A DNA stretch of 5,040 nucleotides from a virus (IMGVR_UViG_3300045988_023854:1-5040); one strand, 5' to 3'. Positions 1 to 5,040 are shown, numbered from the stretch's first letter. A program made the numbers and translations. The notes: a model not told the origin generated them from the letters alone.

Positions 1-55
1 GCAGAAGTGAAGTAATCATGACGCTTCCCGCGAGGAGGACAGGCATGACCAGGTA
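1..55. repeat. Terminal direct repeat, copy 1 (circular-genome assembly overlap)
   Basis: Bases 1-55 (gcagaagtgaagtaatcatgacgcttcccgcgaggaggacaggcatgaccaggta) are identical to 4986-5040. The capsid reading frame is continuous across the implied junction (659+1069 = 1728 nt, divisible by 3). Confidence 0.95.
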
Positions 56-1313: not shown

Positions 1314-1348
1314 AAAAAAAGGGCGATCTCCATGAGATCGTCCTTTTT
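1314..1348 (-). terminator. Bidirectional rho-independent-terminator-like hairpin between the VP5-like ORF and VP3
   Basis: 1321-1330 gggcgatctc pairs with 1334-1343 gagatcgtcc (10 bp with one G.T/A.C position, 3-nt loop). It is flanked by A7 (1314-1320) and T5 (1344-1348). On the coding strand it reads GGACGATCTC-ATG-GAGATCGCCC-TTTTTTT. Confidence 0.65.
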
Positions 1349-1394: not shown

Positions 1395-1662
1395 CAGTCT
1401 GCACATATTCTATGGCGCGACCAACCAAGACAGGAACGTGGGACTCGTCACAATTCTCAATGTAATAGCGACCGTCGCTGTCACCGAGATTGCCAACATA
1501 ATACAAAGTAAAATCTTCAGGGTATTTTTTAATAAGCATTTTATCATCGTTAACTATACCTTCAAAAGCTCGCAGAGCAAGCAAATCATTGTGGTAAACC
1601 TGTGGAGGACTGAACTGTTCAGCCTTAGAATCATAAATGGAATAAAGTCTCAGCGGAACCAT
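1372..1662 (-). CDS. VP5-like small non-structural protein (putative; 96 aa from ATG 1662)
   Basis: The ORF reads MVPLRLYSIYDSKAEQFSPPQVYHNDLLALRAFEGIVNDDKMLIKKYPEDFTLYYVGNLGDSDGRYY.... From memory, the pattern (L-Y-x-I-Y-D-x-K-A-E-x-F, A-L-R-x-F, Y-P-E-D-F-x-L-Y-x-V/I-G) matches the small protein encoded next to rep in gokushoviruses. The start is uncertain: AAGGAG directly abuts ATG 1662, and the track's TTG 1680 has only a weak AGGT upstream. Confidence 0.75.
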   Translation of the reverse strand: MVPLRLYSIYDSKAEQFSPPQVYHNDLLALRAFEGIVNDDKMLIKKYPEDFTLYYVGNLGDSDGRYYIENCDESHVPVLVGRAIEYVQTVDNDSTK

Positions 1663-1870
1663 CTCCTTTTCTAAACGCAATTAGATACCTACGAATCATG
1701 AGATATAGCGTAGCTGATATAACATAATAGTCATTATCAAGGCGAATAACTCTAGAATCATCAGGTTTAAGGCGATAAGCGGCATATTTGCTGCCACTAA
1801 AAGAATAATTAAAAAGAATATTACGATTGTTACAGAACTTTTCAACAGCTTCAAGTTCGCGAATAAGCAT
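1631..1870 (-). CDS. Hypothetical protein, 79 aa (orphan ORF between VP4 and the VP5-like gene)
   Basis: ATG at 1870, stop TGA at 1633-1631. It fills an otherwise non-coding gap. Its first ~50 codons show the same strong T-ending codon preference as the recognised genes (CTT ATT ... GCT GTT ... TGT AAT CGT AAT ATT CTT TTT AAT TAT TCT TTT AGT). It overlaps the next gene by 32 nt. I recognise no family motif. GAGGTG abuts the ATG with zero spacing. Confidence 0.5.
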   Translation of the reverse strand: MLIRELEAVEKFCNNRNILFNYSFSGSKYAAYRLKPDDSRVIRLDNDYYVISATLYLMIRRYLIAFRKGDGSAETLFHL

Positions 1871-1878
1871 CACCTCAT

Positions 1879-1890
1879 TTCTGACTTAAT
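1879..1890. repeat. 12-bp inverted-repeat arm A (ttctgacttaat) at the P2 -10/+1 region
   Basis: It is the exact reverse complement of 2841-2852. It lies in the 30-nt gap between the VP4 stop and the orphan ORF start. Confidence 0.8.
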
Positions 1891-1917
1891 GATAACACAG
1901 TCACAATACCTTGTCAA
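1889..1917 (-). promoter_or_regulatory. Sigma70-type promoter candidate P2 (drives the orphan ORF and the VP5-like gene)
   Basis: The minus strand reads TTGACA (1917-1912), 17 nt ending in TGT, then TATCAT (1894-1889). This is a perfect -35 with a 5/6 -10 carrying a TGn extension. It overlaps the VP4 3' end and stop. Predicted start is near 1882, giving a leader of about 12 nt before ATG 1870. Confidence 0.6.
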
Positions 1918-2812
1918 GTTTTCTGCCAAGAAAATGTTTATACTTACCTTCCTGAACACGGCACCGATCAACCAAACGCTCAAAAGTATTGTTCTCCAGA
2001 TTATGAAGCATCTTCTCAATACGGTTATTACGAATAAACTCCATCCAGTGAGGATGCGTTTCATCAAATTTCTTGTCATAATAACGAGGAGGACGCATCT
2101 TCTTACCGTTAATAACAACATAATCATTGGCATAGCATTCTTCGCCATGATCTTCGAGCCATTTTGCACCTATGCCAGGACGATTAGAAGCAATCATGAA
2201 TTCAGGAATGCGACCTTTATAGTGAGAAGGAGCGTCTTTACCTGTCTGTTTTTTAACTATATAGCGAGCGACATAGGCAGCAGAATCAAAGCTAAACTCA
2301 CCAATAAGATGCATACCGTATTTCCATACTTTGGCAAAACGAGAAGAAGTATAAGTATTATAACCGTCTGTACGGAACCGAAAAACTTTGTCATCAAAAT
2401 CAATATTAAACAAAATGTAATGATAATGGGGGCGACCATAAAGTTCACCATATTCACCACAGCCGAGAAAGCGAATGCCACTGCCATACTCTCGACGAAG
2501 ATTTTTCATGAAAGTCTGATGAAATTTCTTACTTAAGCTTTTATCACGTGGCAAATGATAATCGTCGAAAGTGCAAGTAACGAAATAAGCAGAAGACGAA
2601 GAACGGGCTTCGTGAACAGCACGGACAGCCCACTGTCTACTATTTTCGAGGCGACAACCGATACATTGTTTACAAGAACAACGAATGAAACGGCTATCGC
2701 CAGCAAGCTCAGGGTGAGAGGCAAGGCTACCGTAAAAACTATAATGTTGTTTTCCATTCTTCGTAATTGCTCCTTCAACTGGATACATAAGAATAGGATT
2801 GTAACAAACCAT
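1901..2812 (-). CDS. VP4: Replication initiation protein VP4 (HUH rolling-circle endonuclease, phiX174 A-like), 303 aa
   Basis: HUH-superfamily motifs are present: AYFVTCTFDD (motif 1), RPHYHYILFN (H-u-H, motif 2) and AAYVARYIVKK (Y-x-x-x-Y, two catalytic tyrosines as in phiX174 A). There is also a CSCKQCIGCR cysteine cluster. I prefer ATG 2812, preceded by AGGTGA plus 5 nt, over the track's GTG 2821. Stop is TGA at 1903-1901. Confidence 0.93.
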   Translation of the reverse strand: MVCYNPILMYPVEGAITKNGKQHYSFYGSLASHPELAGDSRFIRCSCKQCIGCRLENSRQWAVRAVHEARSSSSAYFVTCTFDDYHLPRDKSLSKKFHQTFMKNLRREYGSGIRFLGCGEYGELYGRPHYHYILFNIDFDDKVFRFRTDGYNTYTSSRFAKVWKYGMHLIGEFSFDSAAYVARYIVKKQTGKDAPSHYKGRIPEFMIASNRPGIGAKWLEDHGEECYANDYVVINGKKMRPPRYYDKKFDETHPHWMEFIRNNRIEKMLHNLENNTFERLVDRCRVQEGKYKHFLGRKLDKVL

Positions 2813-2829
2813 ATTAATCACCTGTACCG

Positions 2830-2858
2830 ATTGTATCAGGATTAAGTCAGAATGTCAA
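2830..2858 (-). promoter_or_regulatory. Sigma70-type promoter P1 for the rep gene (VP4)
   Basis: The minus strand reads TTGACA (2858-2853), 17 nt (ttctgacttaatccTGa), then TACAAT (2835-2830). This is a perfect -35 with a 5/6 -10 carrying a TGn extension. Predicted start is near 2823, so the ~11-nt leader begins at the AGGTGA SD. Confidence 0.7.
2841..2852. repeat. 12-bp inverted-repeat arm B (attaagtcagaa) inside the P1 spacer
   Basis: It is the exact reverse complement of 1879-1890. On the coding strand it reads TTCTGACTTAAT immediately after the P1 -35 hexamer. Confidence 0.8.
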
Positions 2859-2920
2859 ATCCTAAATCCACCTCGTCCTACTCTTTTAAAATTTCTGCGA
2901 CGAGATCTGGAGGTACGCCG

Positions 2921-2961
2921 AAAAAGACGGCGAGAACCTCGTTTAGACAAGCGACGCCGTC
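2921..2961 (-). terminator. Terminator-like hairpin closing the VP3-VP1-VP2-TM ORF (structural) unit
   Basis: On the coding strand, directly after the TGA stop (2964-2962), GACGGCG (2961-2955) pairs with CGCCGTC (2932-2926). This 7-bp GC stem is followed by TTTTT (2925-2921). The 22-nt loop can partly pair internally (2939-2944 with 2949-2954), so this is a weaker terminator than 1314-1348. Confidence 0.45.
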
Positions 2962-3201
2962 TCATTTAGCATCCCTCCAAGAACCGAAAAAACGGCTAGT
3001 TTTTTTAGAATCATTCTTATTAGCAACTGGCTCAACAAGTTGCGCAACATCGGTTTGAAAATCCGAGGCAACCTTTTTAGCAGTAACAGTATTCGAAGAA
3101 GCTTTACCTTTCAGAGCTTCAATTAGATCTACAACTTCTTGAATGAATGGGACAACAACAGTGACAATGAAAGTCAGAATCATAGTAGTTTTATTAGACA
3201 T
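2962..3201 (-). CDS. Small membrane-anchored protein, 79 aa (N-terminal transmembrane helix, charged C-terminal domain); candidate lysis protein
   Basis: ATG 3201 is preceded by AAGGAG (3216-3211) with a 9-nt spacer. The SD overlaps the VP2 stop TAA (3217-3215). The protein is MSNKTTMILTFIVTVVVPFIQEVVDLIEALKGKASSNTVTAKKVASDFQTDVAQLVEPVANKNDSKKTSRFFGSWRDAK. Residues ~5-24 are hydrophobic with Pro18, and the remainder is hydrophilic (11 K/R against 8 D/E overall). The track's longer 102-aa version (start 3270) lies inside VP2 and has no SD. Confidence 0.7.
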   Translation of the reverse strand: MSNKTTMILTFIVTVVVPFIQEVVDLIEALKGKASSNTVTAKKVASDFQTDVAQLVEPVANKNDSKKTSRFFGSWRDAK

Positions 3202-3214
3202 ATTATTGCACTCC

Positions 3215-3901
3215 TTATTTGAAAATATAGCCAATACCGCGAAGGATATGACCGAGGCCTGAATTGCCAAGGCCTAAAGAGTCATAGAAATCAGCTTCCT
3301 GCTTCGAAAGACGAGCGTTCTGAACCGCGAAGCTCGCGGCAGAATTAGACTGATTAGCTGAAGCGATATTAGAGAGTATGCCAGAGCTCAGATATGATCC
3401 TTGAAGCCTGAGATTCTTCAGCTCCTGATCCATGCGCTGAAGCTCATAGCTGAGACGTTTTTCGTAAGTCTGTTCGGCCAAATTTAAATTATTAGCCTTG
3501 ATGCCGTTATCAATAACTATTCCATGGGTTGCCTGACGCGTAGAATCGGCTTCTGCGACGTTTTTATCAATTTGCGAAACTGCAAGGTGCTCGGCATTCT
3601 TCGCCTGCCGTTCAGCGGCACCAGCAGCTCTAGCAGAGTTCATGGTAGAACCGATATCACTCATACCTACTGAAGCGGCTGAAGCTCCAGATATAGAACC
3701 GCCTATACCATTGGTTGCAGCAAGAACAGGATTAAGACCAGCGGCGCGCATATCATCGACAGCCCACTGATAACGATGCTTATAGTTTTCAACGTTCCAC
3801 GCGTTAGCCTGTGCGGCGTTAGCGGAATTATAATGATTCTGAACTGCGGATCCGAGAACGGAACCAGCAATACTACCTAATGTATTAGAAAGCCATGACA
3901 T
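3215..3901 (-). CDS. VP2: Minor capsid / DNA pilot protein VP2 (phiX174 H-like role), 228 aa
   Basis: ATG 3901 is preceded by GAGAGGAG (3915-3908), which begins one base after the VP1 stop TAG (3919-3917). There is a Gly/Ser/Ala-rich N-terminus. The motif NYKHRYQWAVDDMRAAGLNPVLAA is typical of gokushovirus VP2. A coiled-coil-like central part follows (AERQAKNAEH..., YEKRLSYELQRMDQELKNLRLQ). Confidence 0.85.
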   Translation of the reverse strand: MSWLSNTLGSIAGSVLGSAVQNHYNSANAAQANAWNVENYKHRYQWAVDDMRAAGLNPVLAATNGIGGSISGASAASVGMSDIGSTMNSARAAGAAERQAKNAEHLAVSQIDKNVAEADSTRQATHGIVIDNGIKANNLNLAEQTYEKRLSYELQRMDQELKNLRLQGSYLSSGILSNIASANQSNSAASFAVQNARLSKQEADFYDSLGLGNSGLGHILRGIGYIFK

Positions 3902-3916
3902 ATAACCAACTCCTCT

Positions 3917-5040
3917 CTAGAAGTGGTCGACAAGGCCGGGTGTGCCGAACATAGGTATAGGACGCACGGTAGTATAACGGAACCCTACATCAAGAAGGAA
4001 CTCAGGCTCATCCTGAACCGCAACAATGCGCTTGATAGGTGGGTTCTCCGTAATGAATTCCTCGTTCAGAGTAGGAGCATTGTTGAAGAACTGAGACAGG
4101 TGCCATACGTCGAGATTACCACCGGATACAGAGCTACGGAATTTCCCAGTAATCTGCGAAGGTTTATAGCGATATTCGGCATAACGCTCCTGATAGCCGA
4201 AAACAGTAGTATCAGCGTCAGTACCCTGAGCATAGATCTCGCGAAGCTCAATAGCCTGTTCGCTAAGGTGGGCGAATGTCGGCCAATAGAGATCGTAGAC
4301 CGTAGAGCGAAGCCACATCTTATTGATGCCCTGCTGATAAGTAAGATCGGCACGGGCGCATACGAAGCCTATGATGTAACCATGCTCGACGAATGACTTA
4401 GTGAAACCATGGAATTTGGACGCAGTAACGCCATAAGCTGAAAGATTGCCCTGAGGAGAGGTGTTGTCGGTCGCGGAAGTCTGAGCTATTGGATTGACAT
4501 TAACCATCTTTGTGAAGGAACCTAAGAATTCAGGACGCTGCAGTCTTGCGTCAGGAGAAACCACGCCGAAGAAAGAGCGAAGCACTTCTGTATAACGGCT
4601 ACCACCGCGAGCAAGGCGTTCGTAGAACTTCTGCATCTGAAACGCAGTGCGAAGACTGTTAATCGTGAAGAGGCTGGAAGAATCCAGATCGGCGTAAGTG
4701 TTCTTGGAAAACCATGAATTACCAGAAATAGCTTTAGCAGTAGCAGTTCCTAATCCTTTTACAGAATGGCCAACTATAGTAGCGTCATAACCACCACCTT
4801 GATATTGCAAAGTACCATTAGCAGTGAAAATATCATGTACACCACCGTCTTTAGAAAGTTGAGCAGCGGCAAGGTTGCCAGTCTGTTGCTGAACAAAATA
4901 TCCAGTTATAGGCGAAGGATCAACAAGCTTAGCAGTACCAGCTAAGCCTATAGATACACCAGGACCTTTTTGAGTCCAAGGAAGCGCAGAAGTGAAGTAA
5001 TCATGACGCTTCCCGCGAGGAGGACAGGCATGACCAGGTA
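3917..5040 (-). CDS. VP1: Major capsid protein VP1, C-terminal part (4986-5040 duplicates 1-55); the whole gene is 1,728 nt / 575 aa on the circle
   Basis: The frame of ORF 3917..4810 stays open upstream to the window end: ...PGHACPPRGKRHDYFTSALPWTQKGPGVSIGLAGTAKLVDPSPITGYFVQQQTGNLAAAQLSKDGGVHDIFTANGTLQYQGGGYD.... The track's 'M' at 4810 is an internal TTG (Leu). Stop is TAG at 3919-3917. C-terminal motifs are F-protein-like (RLQRPEFLGS, NLSAYG, WHLSQ). Confidence 0.93.
   Translation of the reverse strand, partial: PGHACPPRGKRHDYFTSALPWTQKGPGVSIGLAGTAKLVDPSPITGYFVQQQTGNLAAAQLSKDGGVHDIFTANGTLQYQGGGYDATIVGHSVKGLGTATAKAISGNSWFSKNTYADLDSSSLFTINSLRTAFQMQKFYERLARGGSRYTEVLRSFFGVVSPDARLQRPEFLGSFTKMVNVNPIAQTSATDNTSPQGNLSAYGVTASKFHGFTKSFVEHGYIIGFVCARADLTYQQGINKMWLRSTVYDLYWPTFAHLSEQAIELREIYAQGTDADTTVFGYQERYAEYRYKPSQITGKFRSSVSGGNLDVWHLSQFFNNAPTLNEEFITENPPIKRIVAVQDEPEFLLDVGFRYTTVRPIPMFGTPGLVDHF
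4986..5040. repeat. Terminal direct repeat, copy 2 (circular-genome assembly overlap)
   Basis: Exact 55-nt copy of bases 1-55. This implies a circular unit length of 4,985 nt. Confidence 0.95.

What the first reader, a model, noticed from the sequence alone, without database searches (positions are those of the whole stretch)
2962..3201. Stand-alone 79-aa transmembrane ORF at the end of the structural operon: candidate single-gene lysis protein
Seen in sequence: the ORF is well signalled (AAGGAG, 9 nt, ATG). It sits in its own frame directly after VP2 and is followed immediately by a terminator-like hairpin, so it would be co-expressed late with the capsid genes. It encodes one N-terminal hydrophobic helix (TTMILTFIVTVVVPFIQEVV, with Pro18) and a charged soluble tail. 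Established knowledge: phiX174 lyses its host with protein E, a 91-aa protein of the same architecture (N-terminal TM helix with an essential proline, basic C-terminal part) that blocks MraY. Microviruses carry no endolysin, and to my knowledge gokushovirus-type phages have no E homologue and no generally established lysis gene. Inference: this is the best lysis (amurin-type) candidate in the genome. Unlike E, it is not embedded in another gene. Alternative roles are superinfection exclusion or a membrane tether for DNA delivery or replication.
Basis: partly seen in the sequence, partly recalled or inferred. Interest (0 to 1): 0.75.

Follow-up and report, generated by a model that had tools for sequence, protein, structure and literature searches.

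The report
Conserved small membrane-type gene in gut gokushoviruses
The 79-codon ORF is a real, strongly conserved accessory gene found in only one clade of gut gokushoviruses; it encodes a small protein with a membrane-type N-terminal helix and is a reasonable but unproven candidate for the missing lysis gene of these phages.

Summary
**Observation: confirmed, with one correction.**
- ORF79 (window 2962-3201, minus strand) has an ATG start, an AAGGAG Shine-Dalgarno (SD) site 9 nt upstream, and lies 13 nt after VP2.
- It was intact in all 88 relatives retrieved by ORF79 and present in 80/80 relatives retrieved independently by VP4.
- It is the most constrained gene measured (pN/pS 0.06; VP1 and VP2 could not be measured).
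- It equals phrog_23638 (unknown function).
- Invariant features: a 16-residue apolar core (ILTF...PF, Pro18), Asp25, and a C-terminal Arg-Phe. The linker between them varies.

**Correction.** ORF79 is not the last gene of the operon. Its stop overlaps (ATGA) the start of a conserved 36-aa Arg-rich VP8/J-like gene, whose SD lies inside ORF79. The "terminator" hairpin lies inside that gene and is not conserved.

**Interpretation: partly supported.**
- No homology to phiX174-type E, phiMH2K orfN, Pfam, PDB or BFVD entries.
- The family is narrow: 24 clusters at 50% identity among 1.84 billion representatives.
- It is absent from 108 diverse gokushoviruses, where free TM-type ORFs are no commoner than on the non-coding strand.
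- Overprinted hydrophobic ORFs inside VP4 show no selection.

ORF79 is therefore the best stand-alone lysis candidate in this genome (about 0.4). Rivals are a VP2/VP8-linked virion or assembly role and a phiX174 K-like or exclusion membrane role. Its strong RBS, coupling to VP8 and acidic post-helix flank differ from E.

The parts
2962..3201 (-). ORF79 coding sequence (79 aa plus TGA stop); member of phrog_23638
3211..3216 (-). Shine-Dalgarno AAGGAG, 9 nt before the ATG; overlaps the VP2 stop codon (3215-3217)
   Evidence: SD-type motif present in 88/88 loci, AAGGAG itself in 83
3109..3201 (-). Conserved N-terminal module (residues 1-31): K4, 16-residue apolar core T5-I20 with invariant I8 L9 T10 F11 P18 F19, then an acidic amphipathic stretch with invariant D25
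   Evidence: pN/pS 0.041
3001..3108 (-). Variable polar linker (residues 32-67); varies in length and sequence between distant relatives; low AF2 confidence
2974..2997 (-). C-terminal motif SRFFGSWR (residues 69-76); R70 and F71 are invariant across the family
2974..2978 (-). GGAGG Shine-Dalgarno for the downstream Arg-rich gene, formed by the W75-R76 codons of ORF79; synonymous diversity collapses here (pS 0.014)
2855..2965 (-). 36-aa Arg-rich (50% R+K) VP8/J-like DNA-binding protein gene; its ATG overlaps the ORF79 stop (ATGA)
   Evidence: pN/pS 0.084; homologues located before VP4 in L003, L004 and L210; weak phrog_10695 hit
2924..2963 (-).
3215..3901 (-). VP2 (DNA pilot protein), the upstream neighbour
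   Evidence: phrog_8693, E 1.7e-78
2830..2858 (-). Sigma-70-like promoter match (TTGACA-17-TACAAT, with TG) just upstream of VP4; consistent with the end of the late unit after the Arg-rich gene
   Evidence: consensus match only

Best explanation
ORF79 is a genuine accessory gene of one clade of gut gokushoviruses, under strong purifying selection.

**Shown**
- It sits between VP2 and a VP8/J-like gene and is made together with the late (structural) genes from a strong RBS.
- In the main clade the VP8-like gene is translationally coupled to it.
- Its product has an N-terminal helix with an invariant-length 16-residue apolar core (ILTF...PF) bounded by K4 and Q/R21-E/D22, an acidic amphipathic continuation, a variable polar linker and a short conserved Arg-Phe C-terminal motif.

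**Inferred**
- The protein is a small single-pass or anchored membrane protein. Weak flank-charge evidence favours N-in/C-out.
- The sequence-specific conservation of the helix points to a defined helix-helix contact rather than generic membrane insertion.
- The most likely job is to bring about or time host lysis as a single-gene lysis (Sgl-type) protein. It would act either by blocking a membrane step of cell-wall precursor supply (as E, LysM and related Sgls do) or by membrane damage that triggers autolysis.
- This genome has no lytic enzyme and no other selected non-core membrane-type ORF.
For: **Real gene**
- Intact in 88/88 loci with an ATG and an SD.
- pN/pS 0.06, the lowest among the genes measured; VP1 and VP2 could not be measured.
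- Present in 80/80 relatives retrieved by VP4.
- 493 clusters at 90% identity in metagenomes.
- Synteny VP2-ORF79-Arg-rich-VP4 is kept in distant members; VP2-ORF79-VP4 adjacency is kept in L211.

**Membrane-type helix**
- KD 2.07 and Wimley-White -6.2 in the window; KD 1.58-2.07 and negative Wimley-White sums in every member tested.
- Confident AF2 helix over residues 1-30.
- Invariant I8 L9 T10 F11 P18 F19 D25.
- The conservation pattern (helix conserved, tail free to vary) resembles that of E, whose TMD carries the activity (established knowledge of E).

**No competitor**
- Pfam and PHROGs assign every other ORF to VP1-VP5, and no lysin or peptidase domain is present.
- The +1-frame ORFs in VP4 are open by default (shuffle P = 0.63), closed in L003 and L005, and show no synonymous depression.

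**Context**
- Lysis of gokushoviruses is unexplained (PMC7062461).
- Lysis-associated accessory genes of other microviruses sit in the VP1/VP2-VP4 interval (PMC9239249; PMC3394797).
- Sgl genes arise de novo and are clade-specific in ssRNA phages (PMC7693330).
Against: - No experiment or homology links ORF79 to lysis.
- The family is narrow (24 clusters at 50% identity).
- It is absent from 108 diverse gokushoviruses (none of their VP2-to-VP8/VP4 free ORFs resembles it) and from 50 VP4 neighbours (HMM search). These presumably lyse without it, so the ancestral lysis function probably lies elsewhere.
- Free TM-type ORFs are not enriched on the coding strand of gokushoviruses (24/179 versus 17/159 on the control strand).
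- The apolar core is only 16 residues, and a crude Hessa-scale sum is positive (+2.3 to +3.9), so membrane spanning is probable but not certain.
- The RBS is as strong as those of the structural genes, and the coupling to VP8 suggests near-stoichiometric, high expression. E, by contrast, is made at low level (established knowledge).
- Constraint as tight as pN/pS 0.06 along the whole length is unusual for young, fast-evolving Sgls.
- Base rate: only 33 of 293 tested candidate ORFs were active in E. coli, and 178 TMD-bearing candidates showed no effect.
Confidence: 0.4

Rival explanations
1. Virion, assembly or DNA-delivery accessory protein. ORF79 would work with its neighbours: with VP2 (pilot protein) in forming the DNA conduit, or with the Arg-rich VP8-like protein in packaging. 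The hydrophobic helix would insert into the host membrane on entry, or pack inside an oligomer or the capsid.
For: - It lies inside the structural module, 13 nt after VP2, and is coupled by ATGA to VP8 in 84/88 loci.
- Its RBS is as strong as those of VP3 and VP2.
- AF2 gives one long helix over residues 2-55.
- An N-terminal TM segment plus a long helix are the features Roux et al. ascribe to VP2-like proteins (PMC3394797).
- The conserved C-terminal aromatic/basic motif RF(F/L) could be a docking peptide.
- The very tight constraint (pN/pS 0.06) fits a protein with a conserved viral partner.
Against: - No similarity to any pilot or structural PHROG.
- The other gokushoviruses sampled assemble and infect without it.
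- The coupling to VP8 is lost in distant members, which have a 10-220-nt gap.
- VP2 itself is hypervariable (only 4 ungapped homologues), whereas ORF79 is nearly invariant. That argues against tight co-evolution with VP2.
Confidence: 0.25
2. Non-lytic membrane modulator. ORF79 would be a phiX174 K-like burst-size or fitness factor, or a superinfection-exclusion or host-takeover protein sitting in the host membrane.
For: - Same small bitopic architecture.
- Clade-restricted accessory status.
- The predicted N-in/C-out orientation would expose the tail outside the cell, as in known Sie-type membrane proteins (the comparison rests on established knowledge).
- The weak PADLOC hit (4TM effector, E 0.0018) is compatible only with generic membrane character.
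Against: - A dispensable modulator would be expected to be lost sometimes, yet ORF79 is present in 80/80 relatives and has the lowest pN/pS among the genes measured.
- Late-operon position and a strong RBS are atypical for exclusion genes.
- No homology to K or to any Sie family was found.
Confidence: 0.2
3. The lysis function lies elsewhere and ORF79 is unrelated to it. It could be an overprinted +1-frame ORF in VP4 (e76 at 2257-2487 or e81 at 2533-2778, minus strand), as proposed for phiMH2K orfN. Alternatively a core protein could moonlight, as Qbeta A2 does.
For: - phiMH2K orfN, embedded in the same part of Vp4, is annotated 'similar to phiX174 E and K'.
- e76 is open in 79/79 close relatives, starts with ATG and is very hydrophobic.
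- More than half of the functional ssRNA-phage Sgls are embedded in rep in the +1 frame.
- Six-gene gokushoviruses such as EC6098 lyse E. coli without any ORF79-like gene.
Against: - The +1 frame of VP4 is open by default under synonymous shuffling (P = 0.63).
- Only 6 of 146 synonymous changes could create a stop in e76.
- The frame is closed in L003 and L005.
- There is no SD.
- VP4 third-position diversity in the e76 region (0.131; 4-fold 0.172) equals the genome norm, although every such change is non-synonymous in e76.
Confidence: 0.15
4. Chance ORF or annotation artefact.
For: - The ORF is short, lies in an AT-rich genome, and is unannotated in several GenBank relatives.
Against: - 88/88 loci intact; codon-position variation 23/9/54; pN/pS 0.06.
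- Full-length PHROG match at E 5e-51.
- Conserved synteny at 34-60% identity.
Confidence: 0.01

Closest known systems
phiX174 protein E (amurin; MraY inhibitor; Bullavirinae)
   Same: - Small microvirus protein (75-91 aa) with an N-terminal hydrophobic helix carrying a conserved proline.
- The helix is the conserved part and the remainder is free to vary.
- The genome has no muralytic enzyme.
   Different: - No sequence similarity: BLASTP found no alignment at E <= 100 against the E of an alphatrevirus, and there is no Pfam hit.
- ORF79 is stand-alone, not overprinted in another gene.
- It has a strong SD.
- Its apolar core is 16 residues versus 29.
- The flank after the helix is acidic, which suggests the opposite topology.
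- The tail is not consistently basic.
Single-gene lysis proteins of ssRNA phages (LysM, MS2 L, and the metagenomic Sgls of Chamakura et al. 2020)
   Same: - Meets the operational screen used to find them: at least 25 codons, an SD and a TMD-type segment.
- Clade-specific and without homologues, consistent with de novo origin (PMC7693330).
   Different: - Those genes are mostly embedded in other genes, weakly conserved and weakly expressed.
- ORF79 is free-standing, has the lowest pN/pS among the genes measured, and carries the RBS of the next gene.
phiX174 protein K and phiMH2K orfN (small hydrophobic accessory proteins of microviruses)
   Same: - Small hydrophobic microvirus proteins of uncertain role.
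- orfN is the only published E/K-like suggestion in a gokushovirus record.
   Different: - Both are overprinted, whereas ORF79 is not.
- hhalign of the ORF79 family against orfN gives probability 0.1%.
Holins and pinholins of tailed phages
   Same: - Small late-expressed membrane proteins with a charged tail, made at high level.
   Different: - No endolysin partner anywhere in this genome.
- Only one short hydrophobic segment.
VP2/H-type pilot proteins
   Same: - N-terminal hydrophobic segment followed by a long helix; adjacent to VP2.
   Different: - No homology to any pilot PHROG.
- About a third of the size (79 aa versus 228 aa for VP2).
- Nearly invariant, whereas VP2 is hypervariable.

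Membership tests
phrog_23638 (PHROG of unknown function) | Full-length profile match | tested here: met
   E 4.8e-51, residues 1-79 against profile positions 1-79 of 79
phiX174 E / Microvirus lysis protein | Detectable sequence homology to E | tested here: not met
   No Pfam family at E <= 0.1; BLASTP against the E of alphatrevirus Lilleven found no alignment at E <= 100
phiX174 E / Microvirus lysis protein | N-terminal transmembrane helix with a conserved proline | tested here: inconclusive
   The hydrophobic helix with invariant P18 is present. The apolar core is only 16 residues and no dedicated TM or topology predictor was available
phiX174 E / Microvirus lysis protein | Gene overprinted within the scaffolding gene D | tested here: not met
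   Stand-alone ORF in the interval between VP2 and the VP8-like gene
phiX174 E / Microvirus lysis protein | Inhibition of MraY and dependence on SlyD | not testable with these tools
   Needs expression and genetics in a host
Sgl (operational class, Chamakura et al. 2020) | ORF of at least 25 codons with a Shine-Dalgarno site and a predicted TMD | tested here: met
   79 codons; AAGGAG 9 nt upstream; KD 2.07 and Wimley-White -6.2. The TMD call rests on hydropathy scales only
Sgl (operational class) | Expression alone causes lysis or growth arrest | not testable with these tools
   Experimental. In PMC7693330, 33 of 293 tested candidates were functional
Holin-endolysin cassette | Adjacent or co-encoded muralytic enzyme | tested here: not met
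   All other ORFs are VP1-VP5 or have no family match; no lysin or peptidase domain
Gokushovirus core gene set (VP1-VP5, VP8) | Present across Gokushovirinae | tested here: not met
   None of the free ORFs between VP2 and VP8/VP4 in 108 diverse genomes resembles it; 0/50 VP4 neighbours by family HMM; 20 of 2932 VP4-bearing phage records
VP8 / phiX174 J-like DNA-binding protein (the downstream ORF, not ORF79) | Very small, highly basic protein encoded before VP4 | tested here: met
   36 aa, 18 R+K, conserved in 84/88 loci; phmmer recognises VP8 homologues in 101 of 108 survey genomes; only a weak phrog_10695 hit, E 0.004
Intrinsic terminator after ORF79 | Conserved GC-rich stem followed by a U-run, lying outside coding sequence | tested here: not met
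   Lies inside the Arg-rich gene; z-score -1.65; 6 of 58 distinct relatives keep all pairs; no covariation

The most novel reading that the evidence does not exclude
ORF79 would be a new, unrelated class of microvirus single-gene lysis protein. It would be free-standing, highly expressed, and oriented with its tail outside the cytoplasm. It would act through the invariant ILTF...PF helix on a conserved envelope-synthesis protein of a still unknown gut host, possibly a Firmicute. That would make it the first lysis gene identified in any gokushovirus.
Probability: 0.3. Interest if true: 0.7.

Novelty: new member of a known kind. Interest (0 to 1): 0.45.

Why it matters
How gokushoviruses leave their hosts is an acknowledged gap. 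Gokushoviruses are among the most abundant ssDNA phages in guts and oceans. They lack E, and most have no lysin (PMC7062461).

This gene has three useful properties:
- It is stand-alone.
- It is strongly selected.
- It has a short list of invariant residues (I8 L9 T10 F11 P18 F19 D25 R70 F71).

Together these make a clean, synthesisable test object. If it is lytic it would define a new protein antibiotic and its target. If it is not, it points to an unrecognised virion or assembly factor tied to VP8.

The value is limited by the narrow clade and the unknown host.

The analysis also adds an unannotated VP8/J-like gene to these genomes. It shows that free-standing TM-type ORFs are not a general gokushovirus feature.

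Tried and rejected
- **Homology routes, all empty or noise.**
  - Pfam.
  - NCBIfam: VapB at E 0.08.
  - PADLOC: 4TM effector at E 0.0018 and 15 bits, treated as hydrophobic noise.
  - PDB profile search: a designed repeat protein at E 0.34.
  - Foldseek against BFVD: 0 hits.
  - BLASTP against E.
  - hhalign against phiMH2K orfN.
- **Terminator reading: rejected**.
- **Overprinted +1-frame ORFs in VP4 and VP5 as better lysis candidates.**
  - Tested by intactness, synonymous shuffles, mutation simulation and synonymous diversity.
  - Not supported. e76 cannot be formally excluded within the close clade, because few synonymous changes could create a stop in it.
- **'A small TM ORF after VP2 is a general gokushovirus trait': rejected** by the 108-genome survey with an opposite-strand control.
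- **Bacterial homologues or prophages.** There was one hit, a 'Clostridiales MAG' contig that is itself a 5.5-kb microvirus. It is only a weak binning hint about the host.
- **A 103-aa ORF in L104** that looked like an M15 peptidase by eye gave no Pfam hit. The idea was dropped.
- **Procedural failures.**
  - My guessed accession for EC6098 (MK629527) was wrong. It is an alphatrevirus, which I then used as the source of an E sequence.
- **One JGI record names a family member 'nucleoside diphosphate kinase'**. I regard this as a mis-annotation.

Full report
**What the window is.** The 5040-base window is a complete gokushovirus genome with all genes on the minus strand.
- Its first and last 55 nt are identical, so the circle is 4985 nt.
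- Pfam and PHROGs identify VP1 (Phage_F), VP2 (pilot protein, 3215-3901), VP4 (Rep, 1901-2821), VP5 (1372-1680) and VP3 (scaffold, 783-1265).
- The closest GenBank records are 'Human gut gokushovirus' and pig, dog and human faecal Microviridae at 85-91% nucleotide identity.

**Checking the observation.**
- The ORF runs from 3201 to 2962 on the minus strand and encodes 79 aa.
- AAGGAG (3216-3211) lies 9 nt before the ATG and overlaps the VP2 stop codon, so ORF79 follows VP2 after 13 nt.
- Pro is residue 18.
- The hydrophobic segment scores Kyte-Doolittle 2.07 (19-residue window) and Wimley-White octanol -6.2 kcal/mol, both on the membrane side.
- However, the uncharged core is only 16 residues (T5-I20). 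A phiX174-type E protein extracted from an alphatrevirus record scores 2.79 and -17.3 with a 29-residue core. A crude Hessa-scale sum is slightly positive.
- AlphaFold2 with a 20-sequence alignment gives a helix over residues 2-55, but it is confident (pLDDT 89-97) only for residues 1-30.
- No dedicated TM predictor was available. I call the helix a probable but marginal membrane span or anchor.

**Is it a gene? Yes.**
- tblastn finds it at 95-100% amino-acid identity in genomes that are only 85-90% identical in DNA.
- In 88 loci (GenBank plus IMG/VR) it is always intact, always starts with ATG and always has an SD.
- Variable sites by codon position are 23/9/54. dN/dS is 0.06 in its own frame and >=0.9 in four of the five other frames; the antisense frame that shares its wobble positions gives 0.12.
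- On a common set of 38 genomes its pN/pS of 0.060 is the lowest measured: Arg-rich gene 0.084, VP4 0.087, VP3 0.14, VP5 0.22. VP1 and VP2 were not in this comparison.
- When relatives were retrieved by VP4 instead of ORF79, 80 of 80 carried it.
- It matches phrog_23638 (unknown function) end to end at E 5e-51. Some GenBank records annotate it as 'hypothetical protein' and others leave it unannotated.

**Correction to the observation.** ORF79 is not the last gene of the operon.
- Its TGA overlaps the ATG (ATGA) of a 36-aa ORF, MRRRRLSKRGSRRLFRRTSRSRRRNFKRVGRGGFRI, which is 50% Arg+Lys. This ORF is conserved in 84 of 88 loci with pN/pS 0.084.
- It is the VP8/J-like DNA-binding protein of the gokushovirus gene order VP4-VP5-VP3-VP1-VP2-VP8 (PMC7062461).
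- Its SD, GGAGG, is formed by the Trp75-Arg76 codons of ORF79. Synonymous diversity in the last 12 codons of ORF79 collapses to pS 0.014, against about 0.2-0.3 elsewhere.
- The 'terminator-like hairpin' lies inside this gene. Its folding z-score is only -1.65 and the terminator scan missed it.
- Only 6 of 58 distinct relatives keep all nine stem pairs, with no compensatory change. It looks like a by-product of Arg-codon repeats.
- In distant relatives the Arg-rich gene follows ORF79 after a 10-220-nt gap rather than overlapping it.

**Anatomy of the family.**
- An exhaustive HMMER scan of 1.84 billion 50%-identity representatives finds only 24 clusters at E <= 1e-3.
- By contrast there are 493 clusters at 90% identity and 261 IMG/VR loci. 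The family is abundant in gut samples but phylogenetically narrow.
- Alignment of members down to 34% identity shows invariant M1 K4 I8 L9 T10 F11 P18 F19 D25 R70 F71.
- The apolar core is exactly 16 residues in every member.
- After the core comes an acidic amphipathic stretch, a polar linker of variable length and sequence, and a C-terminal (S)RF(F/L) motif.
- The 'WR' that follows this motif in the main clade is at least partly a nucleotide constraint (the SD of the VP8-like gene) and is lost where the genes do not overlap.
- Flank charges are 0 to +1 on the N side and usually -1 to -2 in the 15 residues after the core. This weakly favours N-in/C-out, the opposite of E.
- The net charge of the sequence after the core ranges from -1 to +2, so a basic tail is not a family trait.

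**Relation to known proteins.** There is none by sequence or fold.
- Pfam, NCBIfam, PADLOC, PDB and BFVD searches gave nothing meaningful.
- BLASTP against E found no alignment.
- hhalign against phiMH2K orfN gave probability 0.1%.

**Is it the best lysis candidate in the genome?**
- No ORF has a lysin or peptidase domain.
- The gene strand carries several overprinted, very hydrophobic ORFs, notably e81 and e76 in the +1 frame of VP4.
- This is the region where the phiMH2K record annotates orfN as 'similar to phiX174 E and K'. It is also the context in which most functional ssRNA-phage Sgls lie (PMC7693330).
- These ORFs stay open in close relatives. However:
  - the +1 frame of VP4 is open by default under synonymous shuffling (P = 0.63);
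  - only 6 of 146 possible synonymous changes would create a stop in e76;
  - the frames are closed in L003 and L005, which keep ORF79;
  - they have no SD;
  - VP4 third-position diversity across e76 (0.131; 4-fold 0.172) equals the genome norm, although each such change hits codon position 2 of e76.
- The other unassigned ORF, o80 (1631-1873), has no hydrophobic segment (maximum KD 1.14), pN/pS 0.41, and no similarity to the ORF at the same slot in L003.
- ORF79 is therefore the only selected non-core ORF with a membrane-type segment.

**Is this a general gokushovirus solution? No.**
- I sampled 108 diverse gokushovirus genomes from IMG/VR (VP1 about 50-60% identical to phiMH2K and Chp2) and identified their core genes with phmmer.
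- Free ORFs with a TM-type segment occur in 18 genomes. The rate is 24/179 on the coding strand versus 17/159 on the non-coding control strand.
- Nothing resembling ORF79 lies between VP2 and VP8 in these genomes.
- None of 50 genomes retrieved with the VP4 of the distant member L003 has the family.
- Only 20 of 2932 VP4-bearing phage records have it.
- Six-gene gokushoviruses such as EC6098 lyse E. coli without such a gene. The ancestral lysis function therefore probably resides in core or overprinted sequence, or lysis genes turn over by clade, as in ssRNA phages.

**Mechanism.**
- *Shown:* a late-expressed, strongly constrained, clade-specific small protein whose conserved part is a hydrophobic helix with sequence-specific invariants. 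The VP8-like gene is translationally coupled to it.
- *Inferred:* membrane insertion; a specific helix-helix contact; and a role in lysis (about 0.4).
- *For lysis:* the lack of any other candidate, the E-like pattern of conservation, and the fact that other microviruses place lysis-associated accessory genes in the VP1/VP2-VP4 interval (PMC9239249; PMC3394797).
- *Against lysis:*
  - RBS strength equal to the structural genes and the coupling to VP8 suggest high, stoichiometric expression;
  - constraint is very tight along the whole length;
  - the apolar core is short;
  - the gene is absent from most gokushoviruses;
  - the experimental base rate for such candidates is low (33 of 293).
- *Rivals:* a virion, assembly or DNA-delivery accessory working with VP2 or VP8 (0.25); a K-like or exclusion-type membrane modulator (0.2); and lysis encoded elsewhere (0.15, not exclusive of the other two).

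**Host.**
- Strong SDs on VP3, VP2, ORF79 and VP8 fit hosts that use SD-led initiation, which from general knowledge is less typical of Bacteroidota.
- One family member sits on a 5.5-kb contig binned with a Clostridiales MAG, but that contig is simply a microvirus genome. This is a hint only.

**Verdict.**
- The family is already catalogued as a protein of unknown function. If it is lytic, it would be a new, unrelated member of the single-gene lysis class.

Noticed in passing
window 1-55 and 4986-5040: An exact 55-nt terminal direct repeat, so the window is a circular genome of 4985 nt with an assembly overlap. Naive circularisation of all 5040 nt breaks the VP1 frame.
   Followed up: yes
window 2855-2965 (-): A 36-aa Arg-rich VP8/J-like gene. 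It is not among the annotated features of the five GenBank relatives whose full feature tables were read here. It is conserved in 84/88 loci, its ATG overlaps the ORF79 stop (ATGA), and its GGAGG Shine-Dalgarno lies inside the last codons of ORF79.
   Followed up: yes
window 2257-2487, 2533-2778 and 1870-2169 (-), inside VP4; 1410-1547 (-), inside VP5: Very hydrophobic overprinted ORFs; the three inside VP4 are in its +1 frame. They are open in most or all close relatives, in the same region of Rep as phiMH2K orfN ('similar to phiX174 E and K'). For the VP4 ORFs, shuffling and synonymous-diversity tests give no evidence of selection; e81 shows a slight dip (pi3 0.108). For the VP5 ORF only a mutation simulation was run.
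   Followed up: partly
window 1631-1873 (-): An 80-aa GTG-start ORF between VP4 and VP5. It is open in 70/70 relatives but has pN/pS 0.41 and no family hits. It has no similarity to the annotated hypothetical ORF at the same slot in MG883714 (L003 920-1195). Its coding status is uncertain.
   Followed up: partly
window 2830-2858 (-), 1889-1917 (-), 1324-1340 (-): Two near-consensus sigma-70-type promoter matches (11 of 12, with TG), one immediately upstream of VP4 and one at the end of VP4. There is also a terminator-like hairpin with a T-run between VP5 and VP3. Together they suggest separate early (VP4; VP5) and late (VP3-VP1-VP2-ORF79-VP8) units. VP4 has no SD and may be nearly leaderless.
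   Followed up: no
L133 2566-2733, L194 3014-3181, L122 3476-3664: Unrelated environmental gokushoviruses share a small ORF after VP1 (L133/L194: 55 aa, ATG, SD-preceded, MDIKWNIV...LWLMSHG...; L122: a 62-aa GTG-start variant without SD) with a hydrophobic segment. This may be another clade-specific small membrane protein.
   Followed up: no
L134 3138-3236: A gut gokushovirus with the same gene order as the window. In the slot after VP2 it has a 32-aa SD-preceded amphipathic ORF (MIDAILKFVNVLLNSGSAIWEAFKAVKKLLKK), which is not homologous to ORF79.
   Followed up: no
L210 (SFFE01000042.1, 'Clostridiales bacterium' MAG): A 5.5-kb contig binned into a bacterial MAG is a complete microvirus carrying VP2, an ORF79 homologue, the Arg-rich gene and VP4. 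It is likely a binning artefact and gives at most a weak host hint.
   Followed up: partly
(VP4 tblastn against phage records): VP4 identity drops from at least 80% (10 records) straight to below 60% (2922 records). The ORF79-bearing main clade is sharply isolated among the deposited microviruses.
   Followed up: no
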